IMG/VR virus record: IMGVR_UViG_3300037483_000119
Coordinates: 1-48,176 of that record
DNA: 48,176 nt
Reading direction: 5' to 3' (one strand)
DNA from: a virus
Lineage: Duplodnaviria; Caudoviricetes
The notes below the pieces were generated by a model. That model did not search any database, was not told the DNA's origin, and saw only the letters and a list, made by a program, of their open reading frames with translations. The translations under genes were made by a program, and so were the position numbers. Shown piece after piece: positions 11,065 through 42,554 of the stretch (the stretch's first letter is position 1; the number at the start of each line of letters is the position of its first letter).

Positions 11065-11128
11065 GACGTGATCCTTTCTCTTGGTATTGAATGGATCGCA
11101 AGCGCACCCATGATGAGTACGCTTAGGT

Positions 11129-11677: not shown

Positions 11678-11709
11678 GGTGAATCCTTCCCTGTTAATAG
11701 TCTGCCCGG

Positions 11710-11770
11710 TTGAGCGGCATTGAAAGGCCGTCATCCTTAATGGAGGATGATTGCCTTACGACACTGTCAA
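11710..11770 (-). repeat. Conserved intergenic hairpin element, copy A
   Basis: ttgacagtgtcgtaaggc-aa-tcatcct...aggatga-cg-gcctttcaatgccgctcaa on the minus strand. Confidence 0.85.
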
Positions 11771-12051
11771 CGGTAGTGCTCACGAATGAGCACGTTCTTG
11801 AGCGCGAGACCCATCATCTCAAGTGAGCGGTCTTGCTGCTCAATCAAGAGAGTCAGCTCTTCGACACGCGACTCTTGGATTCCGAACATTGCGGCGATGA
11901 CAGAAGCCATGCCGTCAATGGTCGATTCGAGCATCTCGCTTCTCTTCTCACGATTGAGCGAACGCGAGACGAGATACATCTTCGCAATCTCAGTCGCTCG
12001 TGAGTCGGGAATGGTGAAGTACTGGCCTGGCCTCTTGTTCGGAGTAGTCAC
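11767..12051 (-). CDS. Hypothetical protein
   Basis: GTGA overlap with the upstream gene; stop lies within hairpin copy A. Confidence 0.65.
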   Translation of the reverse strand: MTTPNKRPGQYFTIPDSRATEIAKMYLVSRSLNREKRSEMLESTIDGMASVIAAMFGIQESRVEELTLLIEQQDRSLEMMGLALKNVLIREHYR

Positions 12052-12227
12052 AACACTCTCACCGGTCCAACGAAAGTCCCGTTCACGTGCAAGCAATCCA
12101 CGCAAGTTGCTACGGTCGCATCCGGTTCGGTGATCCCGACGAGATGCGTACAGAGCGTCCGCAGCTCATTTTCTGGATTGATGATGTGGACGAGTCGGGT
12201 TCCGCACTTTGCGCGACAGAACTCCAC
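12048..12227 (-). CDS. 59-aa Cys-rich protein (MEFCRAKCG...TLC...TCVDC)
   Basis: GTG directly after the conserved RBS motif; below the ORF-track cutoff. Confidence 0.6.
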   Translation of the reverse strand: MEFCRAKCGTRLVHIINPENELRTLCTHLVGITEPDATVATCVDCLHVNGTFVGPVRVL

Positions 12228-12257
12228 AATGAATCCCTTCTCTGCGGTTGTCTGCCA

Positions 12258-12319
12258 TTGATAGGCATTAATGAACCGTCATTCGCAATGGGGAATGATT
12301 GTTCAATGATGCTGATCAA
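12258..12319 (-). repeat. Conserved intergenic hairpin element, copy B
   Basis: ttgatcagcatcattgaac-aa-tcattc...gaatga-cg-gttcattaatgcctatcaa. Confidence 0.85.
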
Positions 12320-12627
12320 CGAACCCAAATGGATGCCCAACCCTCTACCGGTCCACGTGCGCCATGGTGCCGCACGTATGCGCGGAGCTCTTCCAATGCG
12401 CGTGAGTCATCCGCGCTTGGTCCTGCCTCCTGCTCTGCATAGATCTCGTCAAAGATCTCTACCGGGTCGTCAATCGCGCCGGTAGATGCGAGCTTCGCGA
12501 AGTGCATCCCCTTGACTCCAGCGGACTGATACCACGATGCAATCGTGCGTGCGCATCCATCACTGATGATTTCAACGCGCTCACGTGCGAAGTCCACTTG
12601 AGCCTTTACGGCCAATGCGTCACTCAT
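12316..12627 (-). CDS. Hypothetical protein (ARTIASWYQS motif)
   Basis: Conserved RBS motif upstream; stop lies within hairpin copy B. Confidence 0.7.
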   Translation of the reverse strand: MSDALAVKAQVDFARERVEIISDGCARTIASWYQSAGVKGMHFAKLASTGAIDDPVEIFDEIYAEQEAGPSADDSRALEELRAYVRHHGARGPVEGWASIWVR

Positions 12628-12829
12628 TGAATCCCTTCCCTGTTGAGGGGTGATAGCGGCACTCCCACCGTTCACCATCAATGCGGCCCGAATTGGTGGC
12701 CACTAGGTTCCCGTAGGGAGTGCCGCAAGCTAACGTCACCCCTGATACCTCCTGTAAGCCCCTCAGATCGATTCTGAGACACTCACACAGCCGTCCCTAT
12801 GGGTTGCATAGGGAGACCATGTCAACGTC

Positions 12830-13051
12830 TCACCGTTGATTTGAGAGATCCCGGTAATCGTGGATCTCTAGGCCGAACTCATCAGCGACGGCCTTGATCG
12901 CTGCGAGATCGAAGGATTCGCCCGTCTTCCAATAGCAATTGGTATCCAGGTTCGCAGCGATGCACGCTACTTCCTGGCCATCGCGTATCGCCTTGTCGGA
13001 GAAGAGATAGATGTCATCTCCTGCTGTGAGTACGAATACATCACCGCTCAT
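12830..13051 (-). CDS. Hypothetical protein
   Basis: Operon context. Confidence 0.6.
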   Translation of the reverse strand: MSGDVFVLTAGDDIYLFSDKAIRDGQEVACIAANLDTNCYWKTGESFDLAAIKAVADEFGLEIHDYRDLSNQR

Positions 13052-13054
13052 TGG

Positions 13055-13363
13055 TCATCCGTTCCAGTAGAGAACTTTGATGTTCAGGCACGCGCCACCA
13101 TCTCCGATCTGACGAGTCAGCTCGAAATCCTTTCGCGCGTTGATCTGGTCTTCAATCCATGCCTTACAGGCAAGGATTGCCCAGTCCTCCATTCCGGAGA
13201 ATCGCCCCAACTCAGCCGCATCCCCCAACGACATCAGGGAAAGCAGGGTAGCGGTTGCCTTAAAGGGAGATGAGAACTCATCCACCGATTCGGCACCGAT
13301 GGCATGAGCCGCATTCCTGGCACCAGGAACGTAGAACTCCGTACGAATGATGATCTCCATCAT
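13055..13363 (-). CDS. Hypothetical protein
   Basis: Conserved RBS motif upstream. Confidence 0.65.
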   Translation of the reverse strand: MMEIIIRTEFYVPGARNAAHAIGAESVDEFSSPFKATATLLSLMSLGDAAELGRFSGMEDWAILACKAWIEDQINARKDFELTRQIGDGGACLNIKVLYWNG

Positions 13364-13397
13364 TCAATCCTTTCTCTGTGGTGTTCACTTCTGCCGA

Positions 13398-13452
13398 GTG
13401 ATCAGCATTAATGAACGTTCATTGCTAGTGAACGCTCAATGATGCGTATCAA
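13398..13452 (-). repeat. Conserved intergenic hairpin element, copy C (short apex)
   Basis: ttgatacgcatcattgagcgttca...tgaacgttcattaatgctgatcac. Confidence 0.8.
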
Positions 13453-13841
13453 CCGATCACGCGAACGTGACTCACGTTCTCAATGATGGGCATCATCGTG
13501 AACCCCTCATAGCGGCTCACGAGACACGGGTGACCGTTCGAAATGTAGATGCCGAACATCGGGAACTTAGAGCATCCCCAACCCTCGTAATCGTCGTACC
13601 GAAAGGAGATCAACCGGTTGACGTAACGCGCGTAGTGCTCAACCGCTCCCAGCATCCAAGCGTCACGCTCATTCCAGGGTTCCGCACCGTGTTGGACGAA
13701 CCATGGTGAACGATCCCAGAACACCGGGCATCCCGTTCCGGGTACGCGCCACGTAGGCGGACGTTCCCGCAACTGATAGTTGAGATAGGAAGGGTTCCGT
13801 TCCTGCCAGTAATCGACAGTGGACCTCTGTCCATCGATCAT
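13449..13841 (-). CDS. Hypothetical Trp-rich protein
   Basis: Conserved RBS motif upstream; stop lies within hairpin copy C. Confidence 0.65.
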   Translation of the reverse strand: MIDGQRSTVDYWQERNPSYLNYQLRERPPTWRVPGTGCPVFWDRSPWFVQHGAEPWNERDAWMLGAVEHYARYVNRLISFRYDDYEGWGCSKFPMFGIYISNGHPCLVSRYEGFTMMPIIENVSHVRVIG

Positions 13842-13924
13842 CTCTTGAATCCTTTCCTGCCCATTCATCGGGCGAATGAGCACAGCCACACACAACAGGA
13901 TGCATTGCGTATGACTGAATCCAT

Positions 13925-14152
13925 TCACACGAACGTGTCTCGGTATTCCTGCCACTGATCGGCGAACCGATCGGCCATCGGATCCGAGTAACCGCGCGCG
14001 TCAATCTCCTCTGCGTACTGGTCACGGTCTCGCCGTTCCAACTGGTCAACCGTGACACCATCCCACTCTGCGAGATGCCAGACACAGAGCAGGTCTGTAT
14101 CGGGACTCTCGTCATTGGGGTTCTTGCACCATGGGCACATCAGCCGTTCCAT
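13925..14152 (-). CDS. Small CxxC...CxxH protein
   Basis: CPWC...LCVWH. Confidence 0.6.
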   Translation of the reverse strand: MERLMCPWCKNPNDESPDTDLLCVWHLAEWDGVTVDQLERRDRDQYAEEIDARGYSDPMADRFADQWQEYRDTFV

Positions 14153-14427
14153 CCTTCGCTCAATGGCCCTAGGGGCATCCCCAGGACCTTACGGGCAGCA
14201 TCGTAAGCAGATGCCGCAATGGTGTTCTCGCCATTTGCGTACGTGACGCACCATGGCGATAGCCAATTGCTCGGATCCGGAACGGCCGAACCAATCGTGC
14301 CCACGAGACGAACGTTGAACCGGTAACCGCCGGTTGCGTCGCACAGACGGTAAGCCTCTGCGAAACGCACGATTCCGGCATGTTCACGGACCATGGCCTC
14401 TGACACGGGGATGTCAGTGACGCTCAT
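14140..14427 (-). CDS. Hypothetical protein
   Basis: ATGA overlap. Confidence 0.6.
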   Translation of the reverse strand: MSVTDIPVSEAMVREHAGIVRFAEAYRLCDATGGYRFNVRLVGTIGSAVPDPSNWLSPWCVTYANGENTIAASAYDAARKVLGMPLGPLSEGWNG

Positions 14428-14630
14428 TCGTCATCACTCCCGTAGTTCATCAGCCACACCATTGGGGGATCCCCATTGATACGGCCGTTGGCATCGATCA
14501 TGTCCCACGTGAATGGGATGCCCTTACGCTTGGCAATGCGAGCGACAGTGATCATCTCGCCGGTTGGATTGAATCCATCCGGAATGTTGAGGTCACTGCG
14601 CAGCTTGATAGCCAACTCAGTGGGAGTCAT
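14424..14630 (-). CDS. Hypothetical protein
   Basis: ATGA overlap. Confidence 0.6.
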   Translation of the reverse strand: MTPTELAIKLRSDLNIPDGFNPTGEMITVARIAKRKGIPFTWDMIDANGRINGDPPMVWLMNYGSDDE

Positions 14631-14944
14631 GCGGCACGCTCCAATGAGAAGGCCGGACGTTCGGTGTAAGGGTCACCCGTTACCGGATCCCACTCCGCAC
14701 GTTCACGCCATGCCACGCACGCCTTGTGATGCGCAATGAGCGCGTCACGGACGTCTTCACACGTGGCGAACGGGCCAACCCATGGGGCGTACAGATCCGT
14801 TCTGGCGAACCATCCGAGAGTGTCTTTGTCCTCACGAATGGTCGCCAGGAAACCCACTTCAATGGGTGTCTCTGACGTCATGACCATCTGCCTATGACCA
14901 TCCTCCCGATATTCCGGGTAGACGTCATACTTGGTCGGTGCCAT
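14627..14944 (-). CDS. Hypothetical protein
   Basis: Conserved RBS motif upstream. Confidence 0.7.
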   Translation of the reverse strand: MAPTKYDVYPEYREDGHRQMVMTSETPIEVGFLATIREDKDTLGWFARTDLYAPWVGPFATCEDVRDALIAHHKACVAWRERAEWDPVTGDPYTERPAFSLERAA

Positions 14945-14977
14945 CTTGAATCCCTTCTCTGTGATGTTCTGCCCTGA

Positions 14978-15038
14978 TTGAGCGGCATTAATGAGCCGTC
15001 ACCCGTCATGAGGGGTGATTGCCCAATGACACTGTCAA
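14978..15038 (-). repeat. Conserved intergenic hairpin element, copy D
   Basis: ttgacagtgtcattgggc-aa-tcaccc...gggtga-cg-gctcattaatgccgctcaa. Confidence 0.85.
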
Positions 15039-15455
15039 TCATCGTGCGTTGCGGCATGAGCCGCATTCGATCTGCCCCTTAGGCATCATTGAGTCCTTAC
15101 GGCACACGGTGCATGTCCGGTTGGCGATGCGGTAATCAAAGAGCGGCTCTTTGGGGATAGGCACGTATTCGGGTGAGTTGAGCCATGCAATGTGAGCATC
15201 GATCTTCGCTTGATACTCAGCAACGATGTCAACCTTGACCGGCTTACGCACAGTGCGCTTGCGAGGCTCTGAGTTGGTCGCTACGGGCTTGACGGGCTTG
15301 TCCTTAGCCAGAGTGCCAGCCTGCCTCTGTGCGGCCTTGAAAGCCGCAATGCGGGCTTCTCTGTGGTTGAGCGCGGGCTTAGGAGCGGCCTTGACCCTGG
15401 TCTTGGGACCAAGGATGACGTCCCGACCACGACCGGTCTTGCACTTGGAACACAT
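15039..15455 (-). CDS. Basic protein with N- and C-terminal CxxC motifs; first gene of the leftward array
   Basis: SD gagggag; CSKC...CTVC...CGSC. Confidence 0.65.
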   Translation of the reverse strand: MCSKCKTGRGRDVILGPKTRVKAAPKPALNHREARIAAFKAAQRQAGTLAKDKPVKPVATNSEPRKRTVRKPVKVDIVAEYQAKIDAHIAWLNSPEYVPIPKEPLFDYRIANRTCTVCRKDSMMPKGQIECGSCRNAR

Positions 15456-17248
15456 GTCAATCTCCCTCTGTTAGGTCATGCCAATCAGCATCACTGTCAT
15501 TGAGACAGGAACACTGAAAGGCAGGGGATCGTAAGTGACTCATGCACGCAGTGTCCTACTCGATACACATGAGCAGAACGCGCGACTCATTGAGTCGTGG
15601 TAATCCCCTGCCTCAACAGAGAAAGAAAGGATTCAGATCAATGCATGTCATCAGGTCATCTCTAAGGCATTGGCCCTCATGGCCTTTCGGCCTAGCCATG
15701 CGGTCAAGATGTCGCCGGTTGCGAGGTACAGAAGCAACGTCGCGCTCGCTCGCTTTGATCCGGTTCAGCAATGGATGATCCATGCACTTGATCTATTCCC
15801 ACACTCCATTGGTCACCTAATGGCGATCAAGTCGCTAGGTGTTGGCTACCTCGGTTGGTAGAGGGACGCTGTCATGCGTGTGTGAAGTGGTCGCACTGTG
15901 ATTCCCCCATCTAGGGGGACAGAGGGGTTTTCAGCCTGACTCAACCGTCTTGACGAATCGAATCGGCACTACCCCGTTTCCCTTCACATTGACGCAATCG
16001 CTATGCGTCCATTCCCGACCTACAGGTAATGGTCGGAGTGTGGGTCATGCTCGGCGCGGTGCCCGAATGAATCCGGGGCCGTAACCAAGCGCGCTGTTGA
16101 GTTCTCAAGAAACGAATCGGTTCATCGGATGTAGTCAACGCAATCCCCGAATGACTAGAGGGAGATGCTTTGCGTGACTCTCGCGAACCGAGCCATTCAG
16201 TTAGCGGCCGGTGAAGCTAGCCGGTGTTGCTGTCGAACTGGTGGAACGATGCCGACATTGCTCGATAGGCTCGCAACCTGTCAATAGATTCGAGAGTGTG
16301 AGCTGCATCACACTCAATCGATCATGGCCTGACCTGCGAGGATGCATTGACCCATAACAAGATTGGTCTAGATCATCACTCGAACAGTCGTTCGAAAAAG
16401 CCCCCTCCAGGGGCTCAATGGGCGAATGAGAGGGGATGTAGATCAAGGCCCTGACCAGCAATGATCTCAAGCCGTCCCAATGCAATGCACTCACAGTGAT
16501 AATGCCTGGTCAGAGGCATGCCATGGGGAGCTGAGAGCAGGACTCTCACAGACTGTGATGGGCTAGTCACTGTAAGTGAGAAATTCGCCGGCCTTTGGCG
16601 TAATCGATCTTGGACAGAGAGTGATAATCCCAGGTCAACACCATGATCAAATCAATCCGGTATGACCTACCAGAAAGGTAGGAAAGAGCAAGATCAATGA
16701 TCTTGTGTAGGGTGCATATGCATGATGCACACTGATCATGTGTAGAGTACATACTGTCTGCGATACGCAGACGTAGCGAATCTATGTGATCTTGGCCCAA
16801 CAAGATCACGATCAAGATCAAATGACCAAGATCACTGGGCACCTGGTCGCCCTGCCTCACGTGCGTGAGGGCAGGCCAGGCACCATGATCACTTTCGTGT
16901 TCTGGTGGGGACACGCAGAGCCCGAGCAGGAGAGCAGGAACGGAACGATCTGTTCCGATGCACTCGGAACGGAATACTCTGTTCCAATGGGTCATCGAAC
17001 GCACGTTCGACCGGGGGCTTTTAAGCTGGGAGGCAGTAGTTCAATCCTATCCACTCAAGAATATTTCCTAATTCCCTTTACCTGTTCGCGCGTGTCATTG
17101 ACTCTCTACTTACTATTTTTCTCGATGATTGAATGCAAAGCTTTCATATAGAACCCCAGGTCATTGATGCCATCAAAAACTTTACTGATTGGACGTCACG
17201 GTTTCGGCGTGTCGTAGGGGGTTATATAGAGAGAGCTTCTTTTAAAAG

Positions 17249-17285
17249 CACTCAATCACTACAATCAAAACCACTCAATCACTAC
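17249..17285. repeat. 14-bp direct repeat cactcaatcactac x2
   Basis: Copies at about 17249-17262 and 17272-17285, upstream of terminase. Confidence 0.7.
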
Positions 17286-17535
17286 CGGCCATCGGCCGGA
17301 TAGAGAGTAACCAGCCCTTCAAGGGGCTGGATCGATAGAGAGCAGTGAAGAGTAACCCATCAGCCCTTGAAGGCTGATGGAGTGAAGAACACTAGAGACT
17401 CTCTAACAGCTCACTACGTTCGCTGTGTGAATCAATGATTCTGTGGCCCTTCGGGTAATCATTCATTCGCCCCCGAACAACGTTCGGATTCCCACCATGC
17501 ACGAACCACCCATCATCCACTAGCAGAGAAGAGCA

Positions 17536-19396
17536 TTGGGAAACAAGAAACTCATCTCTGGGAGACCTGGTCTCGAAGCAGCGAAGAAGCAAGTGCTTCT
17601 CATGCTCCAAGAAGGTCATTCGGTCAAAGACTGCATGAAGTCGGTGAGACGATCCGACAAGACCTACGAGTCTTGGCGGTCATACGATGGAGACTTCAAG
17701 AAGCAAGTACAGCTCATTCGTGACATGAGGAAGAGCGTTCGCTCTGACATTCGTGGAGAGCATGGGGACACGTTTGAGGACTTCCGTCGCGAGTATCTCG
17801 GGATGGAGACGTTCACTCATCAGCTTCAATGGATCGATCTCATTGAGGGGAGGCCGCCACGGGACTTGCATGTTAGCCAGAAGTACGAAGAGGGAGACCC
17901 TCACTACATTCTGATTAACACTGCTCCCGAATTACGTTCACTCCAAGACGATGACTCTTTCCATTGACTATGTGACCTATCGCATCGCGAAGGATCCATC
18001 GATCCGGGTTCTCCTGGTGTCGAAGACTCAGGAGATGGCGAAGCAGTTCCTCTATGCCATCAAGCAGAGACTCACTCATCCGAGGTATTCGAAGCTTCAG
18101 ATCAACTTCGCTCCATCCGATGGGTTCAAGGGAACCTCTTCAGTATGGCAGTCGAACATGGTGTATCTCGGTGACGAGATGCGCAATGGGTCCGAGAAGG
18201 ACCCAACGATCAATGCGATTGGGATCGGTGGCCAGATCTATGGTGCCCGAGCGGACCTGATCATCTGTGATGACTGCGTGGTTCTCTCGAATGCGAATCA
18301 GTTCGAGACTCAGATCCGATGGTTGCAGCAAGAGGTAGTGACGAGGCTTGGCCCCGGCGGAAAGTTGATTGTGGCTGGTACGAGGGTGGATCCAGTAGAC
18401 CTCTACAGGGAACTAAGAAATCCCGACAGGTACGCCGATGGGCGTTCCCCATGGACCTATCTCGCACAGCCCGCTGTCCTGGAGTACGCCGAGGATCCAA
18501 GGGATTGGGTCACTCTCTGGCCTAAGAGCAATGTGCCATGGGCTGGCACTGATGACGATTGTGATGAGAACGGTCTCTATCCCCGATGGGATGGAACCCG
18601 TCTATCGACTAGACGGAAGCTCATTGACCCGAAGACATGGGCAATGGTCTACATGCAAGCGGAGACCAGCGAAGTCAGCACGTTCGATTCAAAGTCGATC
18701 CGTGCGTGTGTCAATGGGATGCGCTATTGCGGTCTCATCAGTGGTGACAATCAGAACCATCGTCGCCCAGAGGGCATGCAGGGTCTCTACATCATCTGTT
18801 CAATGGACCCGGCAATGGCCGGTGATACCGCCACGATCGTCTATGCGGTTGATCCGAAGACTCAGAAGAGATTCATCCTTGATGCCAACCGGATGACCGC
18901 ACCTTCGCCTAAGGCGATCAGGGACATCATCAAGAGTTGGACAGACAAGTACAAGCCTATGTGTTGGGTGATTGAGAAGAATGCCTTCCAGCTATTCCTA
19001 ACAAGAGATAGCGAGATCCGGGAATATCTCGCGAATAGGGGGGTCTCAATGCTGGAGCATTACACGGGTACCAATAAGCAGGATCCTGATTTCGGTGTTG
19101 CTTCCATGGCCCCGCTCTTCACTGAAGGAATGATCAGCCTTCCATCGTCTCACAATAGTGAAGGTATCAAGTCCCTCATTGAGCAGCTCATCACATGGCA
19201 ACCAAAGGTCAGAGGGAAAGATCTCAAGATGGACTTTCCCATGGCGATGTGGTTCGCAGAGACAAAGGCGAGAGAGATCGTGCATCAGTCGGTGGCTCGC
19301 AACATGAACCACCAATCATCACGGTACATGCCTCGCTATAGGAAGGAAAGACAGGGAACGATGAACCTAGACGACTACATGGCGAATAGCCGTTGA
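17536..19396 (+). CDS. terL: Terminase large subunit with N-terminal HTH-like region, interrupted by a 7-nt insertion at 17932-17938 (ORFs 17536-17967 and 17951-19396)
   Basis: Joining 17536-17931 to 17939-19396 restores ILINTAPE-HSKT (Walker A-like); Walker B ADLIICDD; nuclease motifs SMDPA, IEKN, DFPMA; upstream of portal. Confidence 0.88.
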
Positions 19397-19563
19397 CCAC
19401 CTTGGTAGGTACATGGCCATTCTGGCGTTGCCCCATGTGTGACTGGGTGATCACCATTGACCCTCGCACTGATGATGATCCTGACAGCCGTATTGAGGCT
19501 GGCAAGGGAATGCACATCAATGCCCATGTCGAATCGTTCAATACTCAGATGGAATCCATCTGA
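19393..19563 (+). CDS. 56-aa C2H2-like zinc-finger microprotein
   Basis: TTGA overlap with terminase stop; CPMC...HINAH; stop overlaps the portal start. Confidence 0.55.
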   Translation: MTTLVGTWPFWRCPMCDWVITIDPRTDDDPDSRIEAGKGMHINAHVESFNTQMESI

Positions 19564-21326
19564 TGAACATCAAGCTGATCTCGTCGAAGGTTCGTTCATT
19601 GAGAACGGCATTGAATCATCGAGACTCAGTGATGGCGGACATCTACGCGATTCGCAATGGTGACATCGAGACCGTGTTCCCTGGCATGTTCTCAGAGGAT
19701 TTCCCGAAGCCTGTCATTCAGAACTTCATCGACACGTGCGCCAAAGACACGAGTGAGCAGTTGGCCGTTCTCCCGGCATTCAACTGCAATGCATCCACGA
19801 TGGTCAGCGATGCGGCCCGTACAAGGGCCGATAAGCGCACCAAGGGTGCCAGGTACTACATAGATCATTCAAAGCTTCAGACTCAGATGTATCGCGGTGC
19901 TGATTACTACGTCTCGTATGGGACGATGCCGATCCGTATTGAAGCGGACTTCAAGGCACATTGCCCACGAATAAATCTGATCGACCCTCGCGGTACCTAT
20001 CCTGAGATTGATAGGTATGGCAAGGTGTTGTCTTTCTCCAAGGTATTCAAGTATCGGATCTGTGACCTGGTCGCATTGTATCCGGAATACGCATCGGCCA
20101 TCTCTGGCCGACAAGAGCCTTGGTCTACTGCTCAGATCGAAGTCGTCATGTATGAGGATGGCGAGAAGTCGGTGATGTTCGTTCCCGACAGAGAAGACCT
20201 GATCCTCAATACTGCGAGCAATGACTTTGGGGAATGCCCGGTAGTCGTGGCGCAGAGACCCGGCATCACTGACACTCCCCGAGGTCAGTTCGATGATGTG
20301 ATGTGGATCCAGGTTGCTCGCAACAGATTCGCGATGATGGCAATGCAAGCGGCTGAGCAAGCCGTAGAAGCTCCTCTAGCACTCCCCTACGACGTTCAAG
20401 AGATGGCGTATGGCCCAATGGCCACGCTACGTACGAACAATCCGAAAGACATTCGTAGGGTTGGGCTGGAGATCTCACCCGCCGCATTCCAAGAGGGCGC
20501 TCTACTCGACCAGGAGATGAAGAATGGTGCTCGATACCCTGGCGTTCGACAGGGCAATCTAGACGCATCAATCATTACCGGCCAAGGCGTCAAGGCATTG
20601 GAAGGTGGGTTTGATTCAGCCACTCGATCCGCCCAGGATGTATTGGCTGAAACCTTCAAAGACATGATGCGCATCTGCTTCAAGATGGATGAACACTATT
20701 GGGGCAATGAAGAGCGATCAATCCGAGGGCTATCAGATGGGGTGCCGTATGAGATCCAGTGGAAGCCTAAGAAGGACATTGCTGGAGATCACACTTGCGA
20801 TGTCACTTATGGATTCGCCGCAGGCATGGACCCGAACAGGGCGCTCGTATTTCTTCTCCAGCTTCGGGGAGATAAGGCGATCTCACGCGATCTACTCAGG
20901 CGACAGATCCCATTCGGAATCAATGTCACTCAGGAAGAGCAGCGGATTGAAGTAGAGGATCTGAGAGAAGGTCTTCTCATGTCCCTCTTGGGCTATGCCC
21001 AATCGATTCCACAGATGGCAATGCAGGGCCAAGACCCTGCCGAGGTATTGACTCGAATCTCAGACATCATCAAGGGTCGCCAGAAGGGCAAGCCGCTTGA
21101 GGATGTTGTATCGGCGGCCTTTGCTCCTGTCGAACCCCCGCCCGGTTCTGGCGGCGCTGGTCCATTGGGCGCTCCCGGCGCGGGAATGGGAGCAATGGGA
21201 GGGGCTCCTATGGGTGATCCCAATCAGATGGGAGCTCCTCCAGATCTCATGACAATGCTCTCTAGCCTTGGTGGTGGTGGAGAACCATCCACAAGTGTTT
21301 CAACCAAGCGCACGCAGCCAGTCTAA
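19563..21326 (+). CDS. Portal protein (head-to-tail connector)
   Basis: 587 aa directly after terminase; podovirus portal-like composition with Gly/Pro/Met-rich tail. Confidence 0.85.
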   Translation: MNIKLISSKVRSLRTALNHRDSVMADIYAIRNGDIETVFPGMFSEDFPKPVIQNFIDTCAKDTSEQLAVLPAFNCNASTMVSDAARTRADKRTKGARYYIDHSKLQTQMYRGADYYVSYGTMPIRIEADFKAHCPRINLIDPRGTYPEIDRYGKVLSFSKVFKYRICDLVALYPEYASAISGRQEPWSTAQIEVVMYEDGEKSVMFVPDREDLILNTASNDFGECPVVVAQRPGITDTPRGQFDDVMWIQVARNRFAMMAMQAAEQAVEAPLALPYDVQEMAYGPMATLRTNNPKDIRRVGLEISPAAFQEGALLDQEMKNGARYPGVRQGNLDASIITGQGVKALEGGFDSATRSAQDVLAETFKDMMRICFKMDEHYWGNEERSIRGLSDGVPYEIQWKPKKDIAGDHTCDVTYGFAAGMDPNRALVFLLQLRGDKAISRDLLRRQIPFGINVTQEEQRIEVEDLREGLLMSLLGYAQSIPQMAMQGQDPAEVLTRISDIIKGRQKGKPLEDVVSAAFAPVEPPPGSGGAGPLGAPGAGMGAMGGAPMGDPNQMGAPPDLMTMLSSLGGGGEPSTSVSTKRTQPV

Positions 21327-21340
21327 GAAAGAAGGAATGA

Positions 21341-21562
21341 ATGAAGAGCGAGAAGACCAAGCGGCCTAGCATTCCCAAGCCTCCCGATCAGGGTCATTGC
21401 GGATCGATGGCAGAAACCTGCCAGCATCCACGGATGTCCACCAAGGCACCGGTTGACGGAAAGAACAAGCAGGGCAAGCAGACATTCAAGGATGCATCGA
21501 TCACCAAGCCGGGCGATGGTACGCGCGGCGGCGGAAAGACTGTCAACAAGCCCGGTTTCTAA
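21341..21562 (+). CDS. Small Lys/Gly/Pro-rich virion-associated protein
   Basis: SD aagga; position after portal. Confidence 0.6.
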   Translation: MKSEKTKRPSIPKPPDQGHCGSMAETCQHPRMSTKAPVDGKNKQGKQTFKDASITKPGDGTRGGGKTVNKPGF

Positions 21563-21796
21563 ATGGAGACCGATAGCGACTATGAAGAGCAGCGCATTGT
21601 TCCAATGCAATGGTCATGGATGGTTCCCACTGCTATCGGTGTTGGAGTGCTCGGCAATGTCATTGAAGCCGTAGCAGTCGGAGTTCAAGACGTAGGGAGA
21701 ATCATTCTCTCTCACGTCGCATGGAGTGAAGAACGAAAGAGCTTCCATGAGGAAGCAGCGAAAGCAATCGAGACGATCGTGGGAGGTACGGAATAG
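21563..21796 (+). CDS. Small protein with hydrophobic segment
   Basis: Abuts the previous gene. Confidence 0.6.
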   Translation: METDSDYEEQRIVPMQWSWMVPTAIGVGVLGNVIEAVAVGVQDVGRIILSHVAWSEERKSFHEEAAKAIETIVGGTE

Positions 21797-22263
21797 CAGG
21801 CAGAGGGGGTTACCAGCGACCGGCCAACCCAGCGCCCGCATCAGGGCCAGGGCGACTCTCGCAACGGACTGATGGTGGTCCCGCACAGGCGATGCGTGAT
21901 CTCCCTGATGCTGCCTACGGGGAGCAAGCCACGTTCCGTGACGACCAGGCAGGCGCACCCATGGCTATGGGCGGCCCTGGGGGTGGAGCTCCTGGCGGTG
22001 GAGCGCCGACCGATGCCGACGCGCCGATCGTCCCCCTGGACGCCCCTACACAGCGTCCTGACGAGCCTGGACAGTCGGGGGCTTCTCTGGGTCCTGGCCT
22101 AGGTCCCGAGTCTCTCGGGCTCGTGGATCCCTCTCAGCAGCTAGAGCAAGCGGACGTTGACCGGATCAGGAATGTCCTTCCAATGCTTGAGTACATGAGC
22201 AATCTCCCCGGAGCAATGCCATCGACTCGTCAATTGGTCCGCCGACTAAAGGGCGCAATCTAA
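21793..22263 (+). CDS. Gly/Pro-rich virion protein, probably initiating at ATA
   Basis: SD GGAGGT 5 nt before ATA; adds AGRGGYQRPANPAPASGPGRLSQRTDGG to the 21892 ORF. Confidence 0.7.
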   Translation: MAGRGGYQRPANPAPASGPGRLSQRTDGGPAQAMRDLPDAAYGEQATFRDDQAGAPMAMGGPGGGAPGGGAPTDADAPIVPLDAPTQRPDEPGQSGASLGPGLGPESLGLVDPSQQLEQADVDRIRNVLPMLEYMSNLPGAMPSTRQLVRRLKGAI

Positions 22264-22264
22264 G

Positions 22265-25200
22265 TTGGCATGGGGTGCATGGGCCGACGTTGGTAAGAAC
22301 ATGTCAGGTTCACTCATGTCTCGCCTTGCCGAGACCGGTAGGGCAATGGGTGGTCTCGTCACTGGACCCATTGGTCTCATCTATGACACTGCTCGAATGG
22401 TCAACGGTATTGATGACGAGTGGGATTCCCTCAAGAACGACCTAGGAGACTTTGGAGCAGGCGCAGCAGCGCCGTTCACTCTTCTCTTGGATCCTCTCAC
22501 TCCAGTCTTCAATGCTCTCTACTGGCCATACAAGGAGGGAGTGTCTCCCGCACTCTCTACCATTGGTCTCGGATTGCAGAAGCTCAATCCGAACGTGGAT
22601 GGTGTTGGCGACTCACTCAATTGGGGTGACCCATCAAGTATCTGGGACAAGGCGCACAAGGTTTCCCCCGGCCAGGCAATCGTTCCCGGTCTCCATGCTC
22701 CTGGTCTTGACTTCCTTTGGAATCCCGCAGGCATCTTTACCAATGACTGGGGTGCCATCTTCGATGGTGACTGGGCAAGGTTCGGTCAATCGATGGAGAG
22801 AACTAGTCGAACCTGGACAAAGGAAGACCTTGAGACTCTCGACAATCAAAATGGCGGAGTCACCTGGAATGTCATCACCGGTGTCACTGACGCCGCCGCT
22901 ACTTGGTTCCTAGATCCGACGATCGTCGCCGGTAAGGCAATCAAGGTTGGTCGTGGAATCCAATGGGCAACCGACATGACTGGCATGGGGAAGAACACTA
23001 AGGTACTCAAGCACATTGGTGCGGCCAAGGGTCAACCGAACTACACAAGAGCGGACCTTCAGGCAAGTCCCGGTGACATCCTCACTCTTCCCGCCGCTGA
23101 TCGTTTCATTGACTACGTCCATACGAGTGTTCAGGCCGATCCACTCAAGGCCGAACAGACATTCAATGCGATGTTCAAGGGGAACAATCAGGCCCGAGGG
23201 CTCTCGGCTCTTCTCGTCGATGCATCGAAGGATGCCGGTAAGCCTGGAATCGTTCAGGTAATGAAGGTTGCTACTGGTGACCTTGCTGCTTGGGAGATAT
23301 TGAAAGCCGATCGTGCTGGACTTGCATTCCAGATCCAGGCGTTGGAGAACAAAACTGATCTAATCACTCAAGCACTCAAGCAGCATCGAGCCACTGGCAG
23401 TATCACGGCAACGACGCTCCATGGCCTACAGACATCGAACATTCCCGGTGCCAATCTTCCCGGTGCGGTCTATGACCCGGCACTGATGCAGCAACACCTA
23501 GACCAGTTGAACAAGGTAATCATTCCTGGGTTCAAGCAGAATGATGACTATCTGGATCGACTCGTGGGGGACGTTGCTCGACCAGTCCAAGACGTGGCAT
23601 CCACGAGCATGGGTGTCTATGGATCCATTCACAACCGGTTGCCGTTCAGTACTGGCGGGATTAACAAGTTCGCCCGCATTGATGGATCAATCCGCAAGGC
23701 GGAACGCCGTGCAAGGAAGATGGACTATTCCCCACGAGTGGCGGTCATTGATCGAGCCACTGGATACAAGGGGACTCAGACAATCAGTGCGCAGCTCCGT
23801 GCATACGATGCTGGTGTCGATCTAGGCCGTACGACCGAACCGGCAATGCCCACGATCCTCTCTCGCCATTACTACCCGAAGTCGATTCTCGCTCTTCCGG
23901 TTCGTGCATGGCGCGTATCGCAACGCGCAATGATGGATGCACGTCCACAGGGTTACGCTGATCTGAATGACTCGAATAGGGCCGCTGAGGAAGTCTCTCG
24001 CATGCTCATGAGGGTCAAGGGAATGAAACCCGACATGGTCACCAAGCATTCGGGCATTGTTGCCCGTGCTGTGGGTGAAGAGCAATTGACTCTTGCCATC
24101 AAGGCAGCAGAGAACTATGCGATCCATGTAGCTGCGATCAACTACAACATTCCCGTTGAAGGTGCTCTCGCATTCGCAGCAGGCCAGATGGTGAATCGCG
24201 ATGAGCAATGGGCCAAGTTCGCCGCATCGCGAAGCAATCCAGCCACTCAGAACTTTGGTGTACTGAACGACCAGCAAAGGCAATTGATTCGCCACCTGGG
24301 GATTGATGGCGTTCCCGAGCACATGCCATACAACTTGAAGCAGCTTGACAACAAGATGCCAATCATGGATATGGACATGGTTCAGAAGGACTTTGCCCGC
24401 AAGGGGCACATCTTCCGTTCGATGACTGGACCCACGAAAGACAACGTAATCAACTTCGCCGATTGGGGGCTTCGCTCCTGGAAGGCAAACGTGCTTCTCC
24501 GGGGTATGGGATTCCCTGTCAAGGTCCTCGCCGATGACGGCGCACGCTATTGGGCGAAGCTCGATGCAATGTCAGCGTCACCGGATAGGGGGCTCGCTAA
24601 AGCCGTATTCGGTTCCGGTGGAATGAAGGGTCTCGGGATGCTTCCCCGGAACAGTCTCGACTGGTTCCGTGGTCAGCCTGTTCATCCGACTGAGTTCCTC
24701 AAGTGGTCCAAGGCGAAGGCCAAGGGACTGCCGTATGAGAGAACCATCAAGAAGCGCAGCGGAGAGGGAACCTACCGAGTCAATGGGATTGACTTTGAGG
24801 ATCTCTTCGGCGGGATGGATACCGACCTTGTACGAATGATGTTCTCTGGCCAATGGCAAGCGATGGACGATCGTGCTCGATCTGTCCACAACATCATTCG
24901 GAACATGTCTGGGGGTGTTCGTGTCACTCCCACAGAGGACACCGTTCGCCATGTACGCGCATGGCGTGATGCATTCAACTATCAGCTCAGCCAGGATCCC
25001 ATTACTAGGCGAATCCTTCAGGGCCAGACTGACGATGAAGTCATTACCTGGTTCACGAATCAGCGTTCATTGAGGAAGAGGAACACTCATCTCGGGCGCA
25101 ATCCCGAGGAAACCGTGAAGACGGCTCGGGCTCTCGTTGACTCGTACCTCACTCCGGAACTCGATGCTATCCCCGGCATTCGCCAGAAGATCCTAGACAA

Positions 25201-27148
25201 GAAGCTCACTGCCGAAGATCTCGACCAGGTGTCGATGGCCAATCGTCCACCAGTCCATGACATCGACTTTCAGTTGAATCTGATCGGTGGAGGTCTTTCG
25301 AAGCAGCTCGGATCGATCATGGATGCCACTTACAAGATGGTCATCAATGTTCCCCATGGCGCGATGGTCTCTCATCCTCTCGCGAGGCAGCTCTACCAGT
25401 CGCGCATTCAGCAGCTCTCGACAATGATGCTTCATCAGAAGCACGGCGGAACCCTCACCGGCCAGGAGATCAATCAGATTCAGGCGAACTCTCGCCGGTA
25501 TGCATTGAAGGAAGTCGGAGAGATCGTCATGGATCTCACGGCCCAATCATCCGCTGCTCATGCGGTGCGATTCATCATGCCGTTCTTTGACGCATGGCGA
25601 GAGTCTATGCAGAAGTGGACAAAGATCTTTGTAGAGGATCCCACTCGACTCGAACGGATCGGCCTCTATAGGAATTCGTGGGGACACAACTTCACGACAG
25701 TAGACGCCAATGGCAACGTGATCGACCCTGACAATCCTGTCGATCCCGAAGGCAATGCGGTCGCTCTCCATGACCAGAAGTTCATCATGCGGCTTCCCAA
25801 GTCATTGATCAATGGAGTGCCTGGCCTTGAGCACATGGGCACGATTGCCATTCCACGTCAGACCGTTGACTTTGTTCTTCAGGGACAGCGCTGGTATGAG
25901 CCCGACTTCGGTCCAATGGTCAAGGTTCCAGTGTCCTCATTCCTCACCGACAAGCCTGAGCTTGAAGACGCCTTCAAGACATTGGGAATTCTTCCCGATG
26001 GCGCAGTCGATCCGAATACTCTCATCTTCGGTTCAACGTATAGAAACCTATACAAGGCGTGGAAGGAACCGGAGACCGACAAGGCTTACATGCAGTCGAT
26101 GCTCTACATCGCATTGGGTGAACACCAGAAGTACCTGGATAGCGGTCGTACGGATCCCGTCAACTGGGATGAAGTGAAGAGTAAGACTCGCACCCTTTGG
26201 ATGACAAAGCTCGTCGCTGGCATCGTCTCTCCCATCTCTACACAGTTCCAACCAAAGGGCCAACCACTCATTGATGAGTATCGTCGGCTGCTTGCCGACA
26301 AGGATGTCGGTCCCGAGAACGCTGATCGGGTCTTCTACGAGAAGAATCCCGAGATGTTCGTATGGGCAGCAACCATGTCCAAGAACAATGCACATCTCCC
26401 AGCATCCCAACTGGCAATGAAGCGGACCCGTCAATACCGAGACATTATCTCGAAGTATCCGGACATGGCCGGTCTCATTGTCGGGAACGTCGAAGGATCG
26501 AATGAGTTCTCTCCATCTGTCTACCAATGGCAGATGGATCACTTGATGGGATCAGGTTCCGGAAAGACCTTCCGGGCATTCCAATCAGCGAGAGACGCAT
26601 ACGATGCGGTCCAGGCCCGAGAGGGATGGGTCAAGTATCAGAAGACAGTGGATGGTCTTACCGCCACTCTCAACAGTCGTGGACTAGTGGACTTCGATGA
26701 CACCGGAGCGGAAGACCTCGCAGAGTTGAAGCGGACCTATACCGATCAACTCGCACAGGACAATCCCGTATGGGGAACGGACTTCTTCACTACGAATCAG
26801 CGCAAGGTACCTGACTTCATTGCAGCCACGAGAGAGATCATTCAAGATAAGCGACTGATCGGCGATCCCAATAGGCAGGACCTTCACGGCCTCGCCAGTT
26901 ACGTGGAGATGCGAGACGAGTTCATTGATGAACTCAAGAAGCGCAAGGACCAGGGCGGCTCTGCCGACATCACGGCTCAAAGCAATGCGGATCTCTACCT
27001 TGAGTGGAAGCACAGCGTTGGTCAATTGAGCGAATCCAACACTCAGTTCTCCACAATCTATCAGCGTTACCTTGAAAGGGATGGTCTTCAGGAGGCAGCT
27101 TTCCGGAATGACGCTCCCCTTGTCATTCCGAGTGATGTGAGAATCTAA
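22265..27148 (+). CDS. Large (1627 aa) internal virion / DNA ejection-type protein
   Basis: Size and position in a podovirus-like structural operon; no tape-measure-type repeats noticed. Confidence 0.7.
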   Translation: MAWGAWADVGKNMSGSLMSRLAETGRAMGGLVTGPIGLIYDTARMVNGIDDEWDSLKNDLGDFGAGAAAPFTLLLDPLTPVFNALYWPYKEGVSPALSTIGLGLQKLNPNVDGVGDSLNWGDPSSIWDKAHKVSPGQAIVPGLHAPGLDFLWNPAGIFTNDWGAIFDGDWARFGQSMERTSRTWTKEDLETLDNQNGGVTWNVITGVTDAAATWFLDPTIVAGKAIKVGRGIQWATDMTGMGKNTKVLKHIGAAKGQPNYTRADLQASPGDILTLPAADRFIDYVHTSVQADPLKAEQTFNAMFKGNNQARGLSALLVDASKDAGKPGIVQVMKVATGDLAAWEILKADRAGLAFQIQALENKTDLITQALKQHRATGSITATTLHGLQTSNIPGANLPGAVYDPALMQQHLDQLNKVIIPGFKQNDDYLDRLVGDVARPVQDVASTSMGVYGSIHNRLPFSTGGINKFARIDGSIRKAERRARKMDYSPRVAVIDRATGYKGTQTISAQLRAYDAGVDLGRTTEPAMPTILSRHYYPKSILALPVRAWRVSQRAMMDARPQGYADLNDSNRAAEEVSRMLMRVKGMKPDMVTKHSGIVARAVGEEQLTLAIKAAENYAIHVAAINYNIPVEGALAFAAGQMVNRDEQWAKFAASRSNPATQNFGVLNDQQRQLIRHLGIDGVPEHMPYNLKQLDNKMPIMDMDMVQKDFARKGHIFRSMTGPTKDNVINFADWGLRSWKANVLLRGMGFPVKVLADDGARYWAKLDAMSASPDRGLAKAVFGSGGMKGLGMLPRNSLDWFRGQPVHPTEFLKWSKAKAKGLPYERTIKKRSGEGTYRVNGIDFEDLFGGMDTDLVRMMFSGQWQAMDDRARSVHNIIRNMSGGVRVTPTEDTVRHVRAWRDAFNYQLSQDPITRRILQGQTDDEVITWFTNQRSLRKRNTHLGRNPEETVKTARALVDSYLTPELDAIPGIRQKILDKKLTAEDLDQVSMANRPPVHDIDFQLNLIGGGLSKQLGSIMDATYKMVINVPHGAMVSHPLARQLYQSRIQQLSTMMLHQKHGGTLTGQEINQIQANSRRYALKEVGEIVMDLTAQSSAAHAVRFIMPFFDAWRESMQKWTKIFVEDPTRLERIGLYRNSWGHNFTTVDANGNVIDPDNPVDPEGNAVALHDQKFIMRLPKSLINGVPGLEHMGTIAIPRQTVDFVLQGQRWYEPDFGPMVKVPVSSFLTDKPELEDAFKTLGILPDGAVDPNTLIFGSTYRNLYKAWKEPETDKAYMQSMLYIALGEHQKYLDSGRTDPVNWDEVKSKTRTLWMTKLVAGIVSPISTQFQPKGQPLIDEYRRLLADKDVGPENADRVFYEKNPEMFVWAATMSKNNAHLPASQLAMKRTRQYRDIISKYPDMAGLIVGNVEGSNEFSPSVYQWQMDHLMGSGSGKTFRAFQSARDAYDAVQAREGWVKYQKTVDGLTATLNSRGLVDFDDTGAEDLAELKRTYTDQLAQDNPVWGTDFFTTNQRKVPDFIAATREIIQDKRLIGDPNRQDLHGLASYVEMRDEFIDELKKRKDQGGSADITAQSNADLYLEWKHSVGQLSESNTQFSTIYQRYLERDGLQEAAFRNDAPLVIPSDVRI

Positions 27149-31565: not shown

Positions 31566-31735
31566 GACGCACCCCCTGTGCGAGGGGAAGAACACGAACC
31601 GGACTACGTGCGATGAAGGCCGGTTACTGCACTCTCTGAAGTGGTCGCACACATCGCTTCGCAGATTTCAACCTATGGCTAGGGAGAGTGGCCATAGCGC
31701 TCTTGAGGGAACCACTTCAAAAGGTTCTCTCCATC

Positions 31736-31810
31736 GTGAGGGTAAGCCAAATGGAAGAGCTATCGCTATTTAATGCGACGGTCATGAGGGTTCGATTCCC
31801 TCTCCTTGCG
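31736..31810 (+). tRNA. Degenerate tRNA-like element (possibly derived from tRNA-Lys TTT)
   Basis: Acceptor gtgaggg/tccttgc, D-loop with GG, perfect T-arm gaggg-ttcgatt-ccctc; non-canonical anticodon arm tcgc-tatttaat-gcga; no encoded CCA. Confidence 0.5.
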
Positions 31811-31930
31811 CTCCTGAATCAGACAGACCGGCCCATGATTCAGCGTATCTAAGTCCGGTAGTAGAAGCCTTCAAAGGATCCCCGATCTTTGAAGTGGTCT
31901 ACGTCCATCCAATAGATAAAGGGAGAATGC

Positions 31931-32425: not shown

Positions 32426-32453
32426 ACGTTGAATCAATCCCTAAGGATGGAAT

Positions 32454-41333: not shown

Positions 41334-42554
41334 CTACTGGACAGCTCGAAGCCATCGCTTGGGGGCGATGATGTTCGTTGCCGGTGCAGCGATAGGGAGT
41401 CTCTCCGGTCCTGCGGGACCGTTGTACTCTTCGAATCCCGGCAGACCATCCCTGAACTCGTCATCGAACCATTCGAGCCCCTTCACTGCCTTACGGTACT
41501 TCTCTTCCTCCTTGGTCATCTTGCGGTAACTCTGTTGAATGGTGTCGGCCTTCCGATGGTTGGATCCGGTAGCAGCAAGCCGGATCGCATCGGTATAGCC
41601 GTTCTCATCGAACGTATCGACCTGCTTGTTAATCATGTGATGCCTCGCGATGTGGCACCCCTGTCCCTCCTTGTGGATCCCAGCGGCCTTGAGAGCGTCT
41701 CTGAACCACACTCCCATTCCTTCCTTGGGCTTCCTCCTGTGGGGCTCGATGTGCCATGGCCTCACTGTGTCGTATCGCACGCTGCCAGTGTGTTTGACGT
41801 TGGGGAACACGTACCATTCCCCATGCTGGTCGATGCTTCCAAGCAGCTGCTTGTCGCATTGGGCCTGATACCAAGCCTTGTACGCTCCGAAGATCTGGAC
41901 CGTTTCGGGATTGAAGTAGTACGTTCCCCGACGAGTGCCCTTCTCGTTCCAAAACCCCATCTTCCAGTTGGGGAGATCGATGTCATTCCATCGGAGTCTT
42001 GCGATCTCACCAATCCTCCTCTCAGTGAGGAGGGTAATGAAGATGAGGTAATACTTCATCTCCCCGAACTGCTCAAGGGTAGTGGTGAGCAGATGCTTGA
42101 TCTGCTCGTCGGTGTACTCGACCCGTTCTTCACGGATCTCGTTGGGCATCTTCCCCTTGATGGGGTTCTTGAACTTGCGGACGACGTTCGTGGGCATGTG
42201 CTTGCCCATGAGTTCGTTGTCCAGCATCCAGTCAAAGAACGTTTGAAGCGCGACCTTTGCCTTACCTCGGGACGAGATCAGTCGTTCCGAGTAGTAGGCA
42301 ATGAAGGTAACGACGTGTTCCCGGTTGACATCTTGGGTAGTGATGTCGTCCTTCATCTTCATGTAGACGTCGTGGCTGACACGGCCATCCTCTTCACGGG
42401 CGTTCTTCCCGCATTGGATGCCAAGGATCAGCTTGTGGAACGTCTGAAGAGTGGACCGGTAGGTCGTGACGGTTGATTCACCCCACTCCTTTTCCTCGGT
42501 GTTCTCCTTTAGGAAAGCATCGATTGCTTTTCTCAGTTTCATTGGTCTCCCCAT
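41334..42554 (-). CDS. int: Tyrosine recombinase / integrase
   Basis: Core-binding domain; TERRIGEI (R), EKG (K), HIARH, NHR..DTIQQSY (H/Y). Confidence 0.88.
   Translation of the reverse strand: MGRPMKLRKAIDAFLKENTEEKEWGESTVTTYRSTLQTFHKLILGIQCGKNAREEDGRVSHDVYMKMKDDITTQDVNREHVVTFIAYYSERLISSRGKAKVALQTFFDWMLDNELMGKHMPTNVVRKFKNPIKGKMPNEIREERVEYTDEQIKHLLTTTLEQFGEMKYYLIFITLLTERRIGEIARLRWNDIDLPNWKMGFWNEKGTRRGTYYFNPETVQIFGAYKAWYQAQCDKQLLGSIDQHGEWYVFPNVKHTGSVRYDTVRPWHIEPHRRKPKEGMGVWFRDALKAAGIHKEGQGCHIARHHMINKQVDTFDENGYTDAIRLAATGSNHRKADTIQQSYRKMTKEEEKYRKAVKGLEWFDDEFRDGLPGFEEYNGPAGPERLPIAAPATNIIAPKRWLRAVQ

What the first reader, a model, noticed from the sequence alone, without database searches (positions are those of the whole stretch)
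17912..17967. Terminase Walker A broken by a 7-nt insertion beginning with the rare codon TTA
Seen: ...ATT AAC ACT GCT CCC GAA [TTACGTT] CAC TCC AAG ACG ATG... Frame 0 reads INTAPE-L-RSLQDDDSFH-stop. The +1 frame opens only at 17915 and carries HSKT-MTLSIDY. Removing 17932-17938 gives a 617-aa terminase with an intact P-E-H-S-K-T P-loop. The downstream ATG at 17951 has no clear SD and would lack Walker A. GAA-TTACG-TTC can form a mini-hairpin. Established: UUA is decoded by the developmentally regulated bldA tRNA in Streptomyces, and a UUA-associated 10-nt translational bypass was proposed for the phiHau3 terminase (recalled, not checked). Inference: an independent 7-nt version in a podovirus-like phage, so that packaging enzyme is made only when UUA decoding is slow, sensing host growth phase. 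There is no matched landing codon (GAA versus GTT), so the mechanism may be unmatched hopping, +1 frameshifting or RNA excision.
Basis: partly seen in the sequence, partly recalled or inferred. Interest (0 to 1): 0.88.

Follow-up and report, generated by a model that had tools for sequence, protein, structure and literature searches.

The report
Terminase broken by rare-codon 7-base insert
An actinomycete phage has its essential DNA-packaging gene broken by 7 extra bases that begin with a TTA codon the phage otherwise avoids, and ribosomes likely skip these bases when the host's TTA-reading tRNA is scarce, which would tie virus production to the host's growth stage.

Summary
TTACGTT (17932-17938) splits the Walker A loop (PE|HSKT) of an otherwise normal 617-aa terminase. 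An assembly of the likely source run carries it at about 25x.

No other copy of the insert was seen. None of 194 other scorable loci and none of 119 other proteins has it, and a 95%-identical relative is intact, so it is recent.

The best support for function is codon use. There are 0 TTA among 924 Leu codons in the genes I counted (GC 54%), as in Streptomyces phages and unlike relatives of similar GC. The insert begins with TTA, and this is the only frameshifted conserved gene found.

The kind is known: phiHau3-type UUA bypassing in terminase, including a 7-nt gap in S. catenulae. This case is independent (a different terminase family, again at the P-loop).

Against function: the landing codon matches 1 of 3 bases, there is no nearby Shine-Dalgarno sequence or stable hairpin, no second copy was seen at DNA level, and the closest prophages lie in Streptosporangiales, where bldA control is unproven. 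Bypass about 0.5; dead allele about 0.3.

The parts
17536..17931 (+). terL 5' part, 132 codons from TTG to the GAA (Glu) just before the insert
   Evidence: 85% identical over 103 aa to intact P0143
17929..17931 (+). GAA, inferred take-off codon (P site when UUA enters the A site)
   Evidence: sequence; role inferred
17932..17938 (+). 7-nt insert TTACGTT; first codon TTA in frame 0; last triplet GTT is the inferred landing site (1 of 3 bases match GAA)
   Evidence: absent from relatives
17939..19396 (+). terL 3' part in the +1 frame, 485 codons from CAC (HSKT...), holding the Walker A Lys, the rest of the ATPase and the nuclease domain
   Evidence: phrog_38 E 1.8e-53, PF17289, T7 gp19 match of the family profile, 95% to P0143
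17965..17967 (+). frame-0 stop; ends the 143-aa product made if UUA is read normally
17951..17953 (+). in-frame ATG used by gene callers (481-aa protein lacking Walker A); no SD
19563..21326 (+). portal gene, intact, 0 TTA; context
41334..42554 (-). tyrosine integrase-like gene; suggests a temperate lifestyle (context for a lysis/lysogeny switch)
   Evidence: phrog_1 E 5e-19, PF00589 weak, Atlas; prophage relatives

Best explanation
The 7-nt insert breaks the terminase reading frame inside Walker A, and it is likely a UUA-triggered coding gap that ribosomes would hop at low efficiency when the host's UUA-reading tRNA is scarce. Inferred steps: the ribosome stalls with GAA in the P site and UUA in the A site; peptidyl-tRNA(Glu) lets go, slides 7 nt, lands on the poorly matched GUU and resumes at CAC, giving the full 617-aa terminase with PEHSKT. 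When the tRNA is active (late growth in Streptomyces), UUA is read as Leu and a dead 143-aa piece is made. Packaging would thus be allowed in vegetative hosts and shut off in developing ones, as proposed for phiHau3. Shown: insert, position, codon exclusion, recent origin. Inferred: hop, host, regulation.
For: (1) In-frame TTA is 0 of 724 Leu codons in 30 homology-trimmed genes and 0 of 200 in 25 minus-strand ORFs, while CTA (71) and TTG (111) are common and TTA occurs out of frame (37 and 34; 25). Relatives at similar GC3 use TTA: G002 17/523 (p 3e-7), G001 4/546 (p 0.03), L089 3/157, L092 3/157, L105 3/34. Low-GC Streptomyces phages show the same zero (0/509, 0/528, 0/563); Cutibacterium, Rhodococcus and Thermobifida phages do not (7/347, 2/551, 2/574). 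(2) The insert starts with that codon, in frame. (3) Same gene function and same motif as phiHau3 g6/g7 (GWG|K), same gap length as S. catenulae. (4) The P-loop has no indel in 119 of 119 other proteins and 193 of 195 loci, so a functional enzyme needs an exact skip. (5) terL is the only frameshifted conserved gene found; the record is rated 100% complete and the insert is the majority form at about 25x. (6) The insert is not a local duplication. (7) P0142, a 481-aa protein one residue different and called from the same ATG on another 1,785-nt contig, may be a second split copy (DNA not seen).
Against: Landing GUU matches GAA at 1 of 3 positions, whereas the four published sites match at 2 or 3. 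Better partial matches lie further on (CAA +15, AAG +16, GAC +18) and would give non-functional products. No SD within 20 nt of UUA (-3.0 kcal/mol, against -5.0 and -10.6 at the Hau3 sites) and no stable hairpin. The KGWG nascent peptide noted for Hau3 is absent. The insert was seen at DNA level only in this genome; the 95%-identical P0143 is intact; three TTA-led pattern scans of viral contigs gave no terminase. The tree puts this terminase among Actinocorallia and Nonomuraea prophages, apart from the Streptomyces ones, and bldA control may not extend beyond Streptomycineae (PMC4255298). At the Rhodococcus phage rate, 0 of 924 has probability 0.035, so the host inference is not airtight. The finding was picked from a large scan because it looks like this.
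Confidence: 0.5

Rival explanations
1. A recent inactivating insertion. The genome is a packaging-dead variant kept as a prophage or episome, or complemented by an intact co-infecting relative, and the leading TTA is chance.
For: Singleton; a 95%-identical relative is intact. No matched landing codon, SD or stable hairpin. An integrase-like gene and prophage relatives allow persistence without packaging. Mostly synonymous differences to runs X2 and X3 (3 of 4, 16 of 19) cannot date the insert, since neither run covers the junction.
Against: The chance of a leading TTA is about 0.3-1.6%. No other frameshifted conserved gene. The record ends overlap each other rather than running into host DNA. 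The insert is not a slippage-type duplication. A possible second variant carries the same split.
Confidence: 0.3
2. A +1 frameshift near the site (CCC-G or GAA-U) restores the frame but adds two residues (AP-NYV-HSK or APE-YV-HSK), and the longer P-loop still works.
For: The +1 frame is open from 17915. CCC-N is a known +1 slip site (own knowledge).
Against: No P-loop indel in 119 of 119 proteins. A CCC slip would not need TTA. At phiHau3 g6/g7 (UUA changed to UAA, in E. coli), mass spectrometry and a +1 stop codon favoured bypass over frameshift.
Confidence: 0.08
3. A DNA-level switch or mixed population: an intact allele exists at lower frequency and does the packaging.
For: Run X1 holds a minor strain elsewhere in the genome (depth 6.3 against 17.2 at 37096-37315). 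Contigs drop rare variants.
Against: No repeat or homopolymer flanks the insert. No alternative contig at the site among the 90% of X1 that was read.
Confidence: 0.06
4. The 7 nt are cut out of the mRNA and the ends joined, for example by the phage's RNA ligase.
For: The genome encodes an RNA ligase (PF09414).
Against: 7 nt is too short for known self-splicing introns (own knowledge); no stable structure; no Rfam family match; it does not explain the TTA.
Confidence: 0.03
5. Assembly or sequencing artefact.
For: The record has imperfect duplicated ends (94-97%). Only the likely source run covers the site.
Against: A separately assembled contig of that run has the same letters at depth 25. A 7-nt non-repeat insertion is not a typical short-read error (own knowledge).
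Confidence: 0.03

Closest known systems
UUA-associated translational bypassing in the terminase of Streptomyces phage phiHau3 and prophages StrepC.1 and S. catenulae (Antonov et al. 2023, PMC10732093; proposal by Smith et al. 2013, not seen)
   Same: Short frame-breaking insert beginning with in-frame TTA in terL of a TTA-avoiding actinophage. The g6/g7 site also splits the Walker A loop just before the Lys. S. catenulae has a 7-nt gap with an imperfect landing codon (GGC/AGC).
   Different: Unrelated terminase family (phrog_38, T7 gp19-like, against phrog_9; no BLAST similarity). Take-off Glu GAA rather than Gly or Ser. Landing match 1 of 3. No nearby SD, no stable stem-loop, no KGWG peptide. 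Host not shown to be Streptomyces. No experiment.
Phage T4 gene 60 bypass
   Same: A non-coding insert skipped by the ribosome with a +1-type frame change and a slow A-site codon.
   Different: 50 nt, matched GGA codons, stop codon in the A site, strong RNA and nascent-peptide signals; not known to be regulatory.
byps of Magnusiomyces capitatus mitochondria
   Same: Short inserts starting with an unused codon; several lack perfectly matched codons (PMC5009743 passage).
   Different: Mitochondrial ribosomes with relaxed decoding; many sites; described as context-independent correction.
Beephvirinae (cluster BF) Streptomyces phages such as Manuel
   Same: Closest cultured terminases (46-48%), similar gene order, genome size and TTA exclusion.
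   Different: Their terL P-loop is intact in the three examined (Manuel, Immanuel3, JXY1); they sit in a separate clade; Manuel carries a cluster of about 20 tRNAs where this genome has one odd tRNA-like gene.

Membership tests
phiHau3-type UUA bypass | Frame-breaking short insert in terL at a site that tolerates no indel | tested here: met
phiHau3-type UUA bypass | Insert begins with in-frame TTA directly after the last conserved codon | tested here: met
phiHau3-type UUA bypass | TTA otherwise absent from the phage's genes | tested here: met
   0 of 924 Leu codons in 55 genes or ORFs; trimming and one excluded ORF are described in the report
phiHau3-type UUA bypass | Landing codon matched or nearly matched to the take-off codon | tested here: not met
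   GAA/GUU 1 of 3; no GAA or GAG in the next 30 positions; known sites 2-3 of 3
phiHau3-type UUA bypass | Internal SD shortly 5' of the take-off codon | tested here: not met
   -3.0 kcal/mol within 20 nt; the nearest strong SD-like run lies about 35-43 nt upstream
phiHau3-type UUA bypass | Stable RNA structure around UUA bringing the landing site close | tested here: not met
   mini-hairpin +1.2 kcal/mol, probability 0.13-0.24; z about 0.2
phiHau3-type UUA bypass | Host with bldA-regulated UUA decoding (Streptomyces or Kitasatospora) | tested here: inconclusive
   codon use says yes; tree neighbours are Streptosporangiales; no spacer or att match found
phiHau3-type UUA bypass | Full-length product with a bypass junction peptide | not testable with these tools
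   needs a reporter and mass spectrometry
T4 gene 60-type bypass | [quoted passage not shown] | tested here: not met
Terminase large subunit, phrog_38 / T7 gp19-like | ATPase with Walker A and B plus RNase H-like nuclease, next to the portal | tested here: met
   (Walker A complete only if the 7 nt are skipped)

The most novel reading that the evidence does not exclude
Two unrelated actinophage lineages independently put a UUA-led coding gap into the terminase P-loop, and this one works without a matched landing codon, SD or hairpin. A hungry UUA alone would then let actinomycete ribosomes hop a precise 7 nt, so that a single small insertion creates a growth-phase switch, possibly in a non-Streptomyces host where UUA control is not yet known.
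Probability: 0.3. Interest if true: 0.82.

Novelty: new variant of a known kind. Interest (0 to 1): 0.6.

Why it matters
Natural translational bypassing is known from very few systems, and the only proposed regulatory case (phiHau3 and two prophages, one terminase family) is not proven. An independent, recent occurrence in an unrelated terminase, at the same catalytic loop, would be evidence of convergence on this switch. It comes with a 95%-identical intact relative as a natural control and lacks the proposed stimulators, so it tests directly whether a hungry UUA is enough and how landing is chosen without codon matching. If it is only a dead allele, it matters little.

Tried and rejected
Second copy of the insert. 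Viral contig scans, the metagenome scan (40) and the GTDB scan (41) found none; one search read 17 of 64 parts and kept 80 of 586 hits, and one search kept 80 of 376. TTA-led DNA patterns gave 49, 6 and 0 loci, none a terminase. Short-protein searches gave no other N-terminal piece ending at PE plus a frameshifted tail among 20 other hits. These tools may leave out records very near the window.

Reads. Runs X2 and X3 do not cover the junction. No RNA holder was listed.

Host. DNA searches of 401 Streptomyces genomes (window 17000-36999) and 401 genomes of the Actinocorallia class (37000-48176) gave only NlpC/P60-region, prophage and short chance matches in the rows listed. Only 2 candidates per genome were scored, so this is a weak test. 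The integrase had no match among cultured phages, and Atlas taxa were uninformative. A search of 401 genomes of the Actinocorallia order found 3 with the terminase; the one new locus is intact.

JXY1. Its split terL is a 1-nt loss far from the P-loop with no TTA: unrelated.

tRNA-like gene at 31736-31811 as a frameshift suppressor: rejected. Its loop (UAUUUAAU) does not pair with UUAC, and four-base reading would still lengthen the P-loop.

Split exonuclease as a sign of decay: rejected. The same split occurs in relatives at 30% identity.

The deep profile search (ticket s130205b89701) never left the queue, so P-loop length was not checked in more distant relatives. Four look-ups of earlier findings returned nothing.

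Full report
Observation. A terminase large-subunit gene starts at TTG 17536 and reads 132 codons to ...INTAPE. Then come 7 nt, TTACGTT (17932-17938), and the gene goes on in the +1 frame with HSKTMTLSIDY for 485 codons (617 in all). Read straight through, it stops at 17967 after 143 aa. Among deletions of 1, 4, 7 or 10 nt starting at 17920-17944, only 17932-17938 restores PEHSK. A profile of 16 intact relatives aligns this motif with the Walker A loop of T7 gp19. A 17,758-nt contig of run X1, depth 25.3, matches 17000-20000 without a difference. That run may be the source of the window, and contigs drop rare variants, so this shows the majority form, not fixation.

The genome. It is a 48-kb virus record rated 100% complete, GC 54%. 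It has portal, capsid, tail, lysin, primase, helicase, sigma-factor, RNA-ligase and tyrosine-integrase-like genes. The closest cultured terminases are those of Streptomyces Beephvirinae (46-48%). The exonuclease and phosphoesterase matched actinophages almost exclusively; the lysin's best matches were mostly Streptomyces phages at under 30% identity. Prophage relatives lie in Actinocorallia (64%), Kineococcus, Streptomyces, Lentzea, Umezawaea and Terrabacter and in Nonomuraea (71% over the 3' part). In a quick IQ-TREE (the careful search did not finish) this terminase nests with the Actinocorallia and Nonomuraea prophages (SH-aLRT 97), away from the Streptomyces ones. Against five related genomes, terL was the only conserved gene broken by a frameshift. 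Two other flags in that call were a split exonuclease that is also split in distant relatives and what I read as a difference in gene boundaries against Manuel (not followed further).

Relatives at the site. Of 204 loci with a match, 9 were cut off upstream and dropped. Of the 195 scored, 193 are intact. The two exceptions are the window's own copy and a Terrabacter prophage with an intein-like insert in the same loop. These loci are redundant and many are near-identical freshwater phages. Of the 119 best other proteins (of 4,489 found), all have the loop without an indel. The 90% cluster of this protein holds P0143, 95% identical and intact (INTAPEHSKT), so the insert is recent. It also holds P0142, which differs by one residue, comes from another 1,785-nt contig and was called from the same internal ATG. 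That is what a second split copy would look like, but a contig starting just upstream could give the same call, and I could not see its DNA.

TTA use. In 29 genes with family support, 3 of 742 Leu codons were TTA. All three lie in 5' ORF extensions upstream of the family match and overlapping the previous ORF. After trimming to homology-supported spans the count is 0 of 724 in 30 genes. In 25 minus-strand ORFs that I chose as likely genes it is 0 of 200. One plus-strand ORF (3388-3573) has 3 TTA; I left it out because an overlapping frame reads as a membrane-like peptide, judged by eye. CTA and TTG are common, so this is not general avoidance of A/T. Relatives at GC3 0.60-0.68 mostly use TTA (17/523, 4/546, 3/157, 3/157, 3/34, 2/96), but L107 (0/45) and L100 (0/113) do not. 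Control phages, chosen by me, parts of genomes only: three Streptomyces phages at GC3 0.44-0.55 have 0/509, 0/528 and 0/563; Cutibacterium PA6 has 7/347, Rhodococcus Pepy6 2/551 and the high-GC mycobacteriophage MrGordo 0/526; Thermobifida P1312 has 2/574. Zero of 924 has probability 0.001 at the G001 rate and 0.035 at the Pepy6 rate. The pattern fits a host in which UUA is hard to read, most simply Streptomyces, although the tree points to Streptosporangiales.

Recoding signals. Take-off GAA and landing GUU share one base. No GAA or GAG occurs in the next 30 positions, and the better partial matches (CAA, AAG, GAC) would drop the catalytic Lys or stay in frame 0. The phiHau3 sites are GGC/GGT and TCT/TCC. 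The supplement writes StrepC.1 as GGC_TTA_CCGGC_AAG (8 nt by my count) and S. catenulae as GGC_TTA_TAGC_AAG (7 nt). The SD-like GAGGGAG lies about 35-43 nt upstream, too far by comparison with Hau3. The GAA/UUC hairpin costs +1.2 kcal/mol, whereas Hau3 g6/g7 folds a clear stem with a UCCG loop. The insert's 3' end is complementary to the take-off codon, which could help the tRNA let go, but this is a few-percent coincidence on an unstable helix.

Mechanism. I commit to a UUA-triggered 7-nt hop at low efficiency (0.5). The reasoning: a frame-breaking insert in a phage would usually be a dead allele, but a random one starts with TTA only 0.3-1.6% of the time. This one does so in the gene and loop where the mechanism is already documented, in a genome that excludes the codon. 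The missing landing match and stimulators, the singleton status, the uncertain host and the selection of this case from a large scan pull the odds back. Terminase is needed in small amounts (own knowledge), so an inefficient hop could suffice. The main rival is a recent dead allele (0.3). Frameshifting (0.08), a mixed population (0.06), RNA excision (0.03) and artefact (0.03) are minor.

What is known. Antonov et al. 2023 (PMC10732093): I saw the abstract, passages, sections 3.4 and 3.6, the first parts of the Introduction and Discussion, supplement part 1 of 140 and two supplement searches. They report 3 of 100 Hau3-like ter genes with UUA-led gaps, full-length product in Streptomyces, and a bypass junction peptide in E. 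coli with UUA changed to UAA. They say regulation is not proven. Their search used Hau3 queries; this terminase has no BLAST similarity to the two Hau3 parts I compared and falls in another PHROG family, so it would probably not have been found. 'Manuel' and 'cluster BF' do not occur in their main text. Atkins et al. 2016 (PMC5009743, passages only) note imperfectly matched codons in yeast mitochondrial byps. Chandra and Chater (PMC4255298, passages only) caution that bldA's role may be confined to Streptomycineae. Smith et al. 2013 was not seen. Eight searches (listings only, apart from these three papers) showed no report of a UUA gap in this terminase family. The library lacks most subscription papers, and supplementary figures 9 and 10 of Antonov et al. 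are pictures that I could not see.

Verdict. A real feature that looks like phiHau3-type bypassing but fails three of its listed cis features, so I do not file it as a member. It is a new variant of a known kind with independent origin, and its function is unproven. Interest 0.6.

Noticed in passing
window 45185-46209 (+): The Cas4-like exonuclease is in two ORFs (45185-45385 and 45514-46209) with a small Cys-rich ORF (45279-45545) between and overlapping them. The same N-part / Cys-rich ORF / C-part layout occurs in L252 and L254 at 30% identity, while G003 has it in one piece. A conserved split nuclease with a nested gene; unexplained.
   Followed up: partly
window 31736-31811 (+): tRNA-like gene with an abnormal 6- or 8-nt anticodon loop (TATTTAAT) and two extra bases before the T arm, at the position of the tRNA cluster of related phages. 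ARAGORN calls it undetermined and Rfam does not find it. Several hairpins precede it (31600-31735).
   Followed up: partly
L205:8981-9988: Terrabacter prophage terL carries an intein-like insert (C...THN) in the same Walker A loop, followed by Ala rather than the usual Cys, Ser or Thr (the rule is recalled).
   Followed up: no
window 1-~990 and 47185-48176: The record ends are 94-97% identical copies; run X1 holds a minor strain. The assembly probably closes a circle through two strain variants.
   Followed up: partly
window 11705-15047: A family of intergenic repeats (GGCATTAATGA... core, 3-4 copies) among the minus-strand early genes; probably promoters or regulator sites.
   Followed up: no
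window 9389-9955 and 10345-11070 (-): Two ORFs whose N-termini look Lsr2-like by eye (recalled); no PHROG or Pfam match.
   Followed up: partly
L020 (MN994275.1) near 1737: Streptomyces phage JXY1 terL is split by a 1-nt loss without TTA, probably a sequencing error.
   Followed up: yes
window 34007-37096: Tail-fibre region where run X1 contigs give almost no cover although the flanks are at 18-25x; may be a variable region.
   Followed up: no
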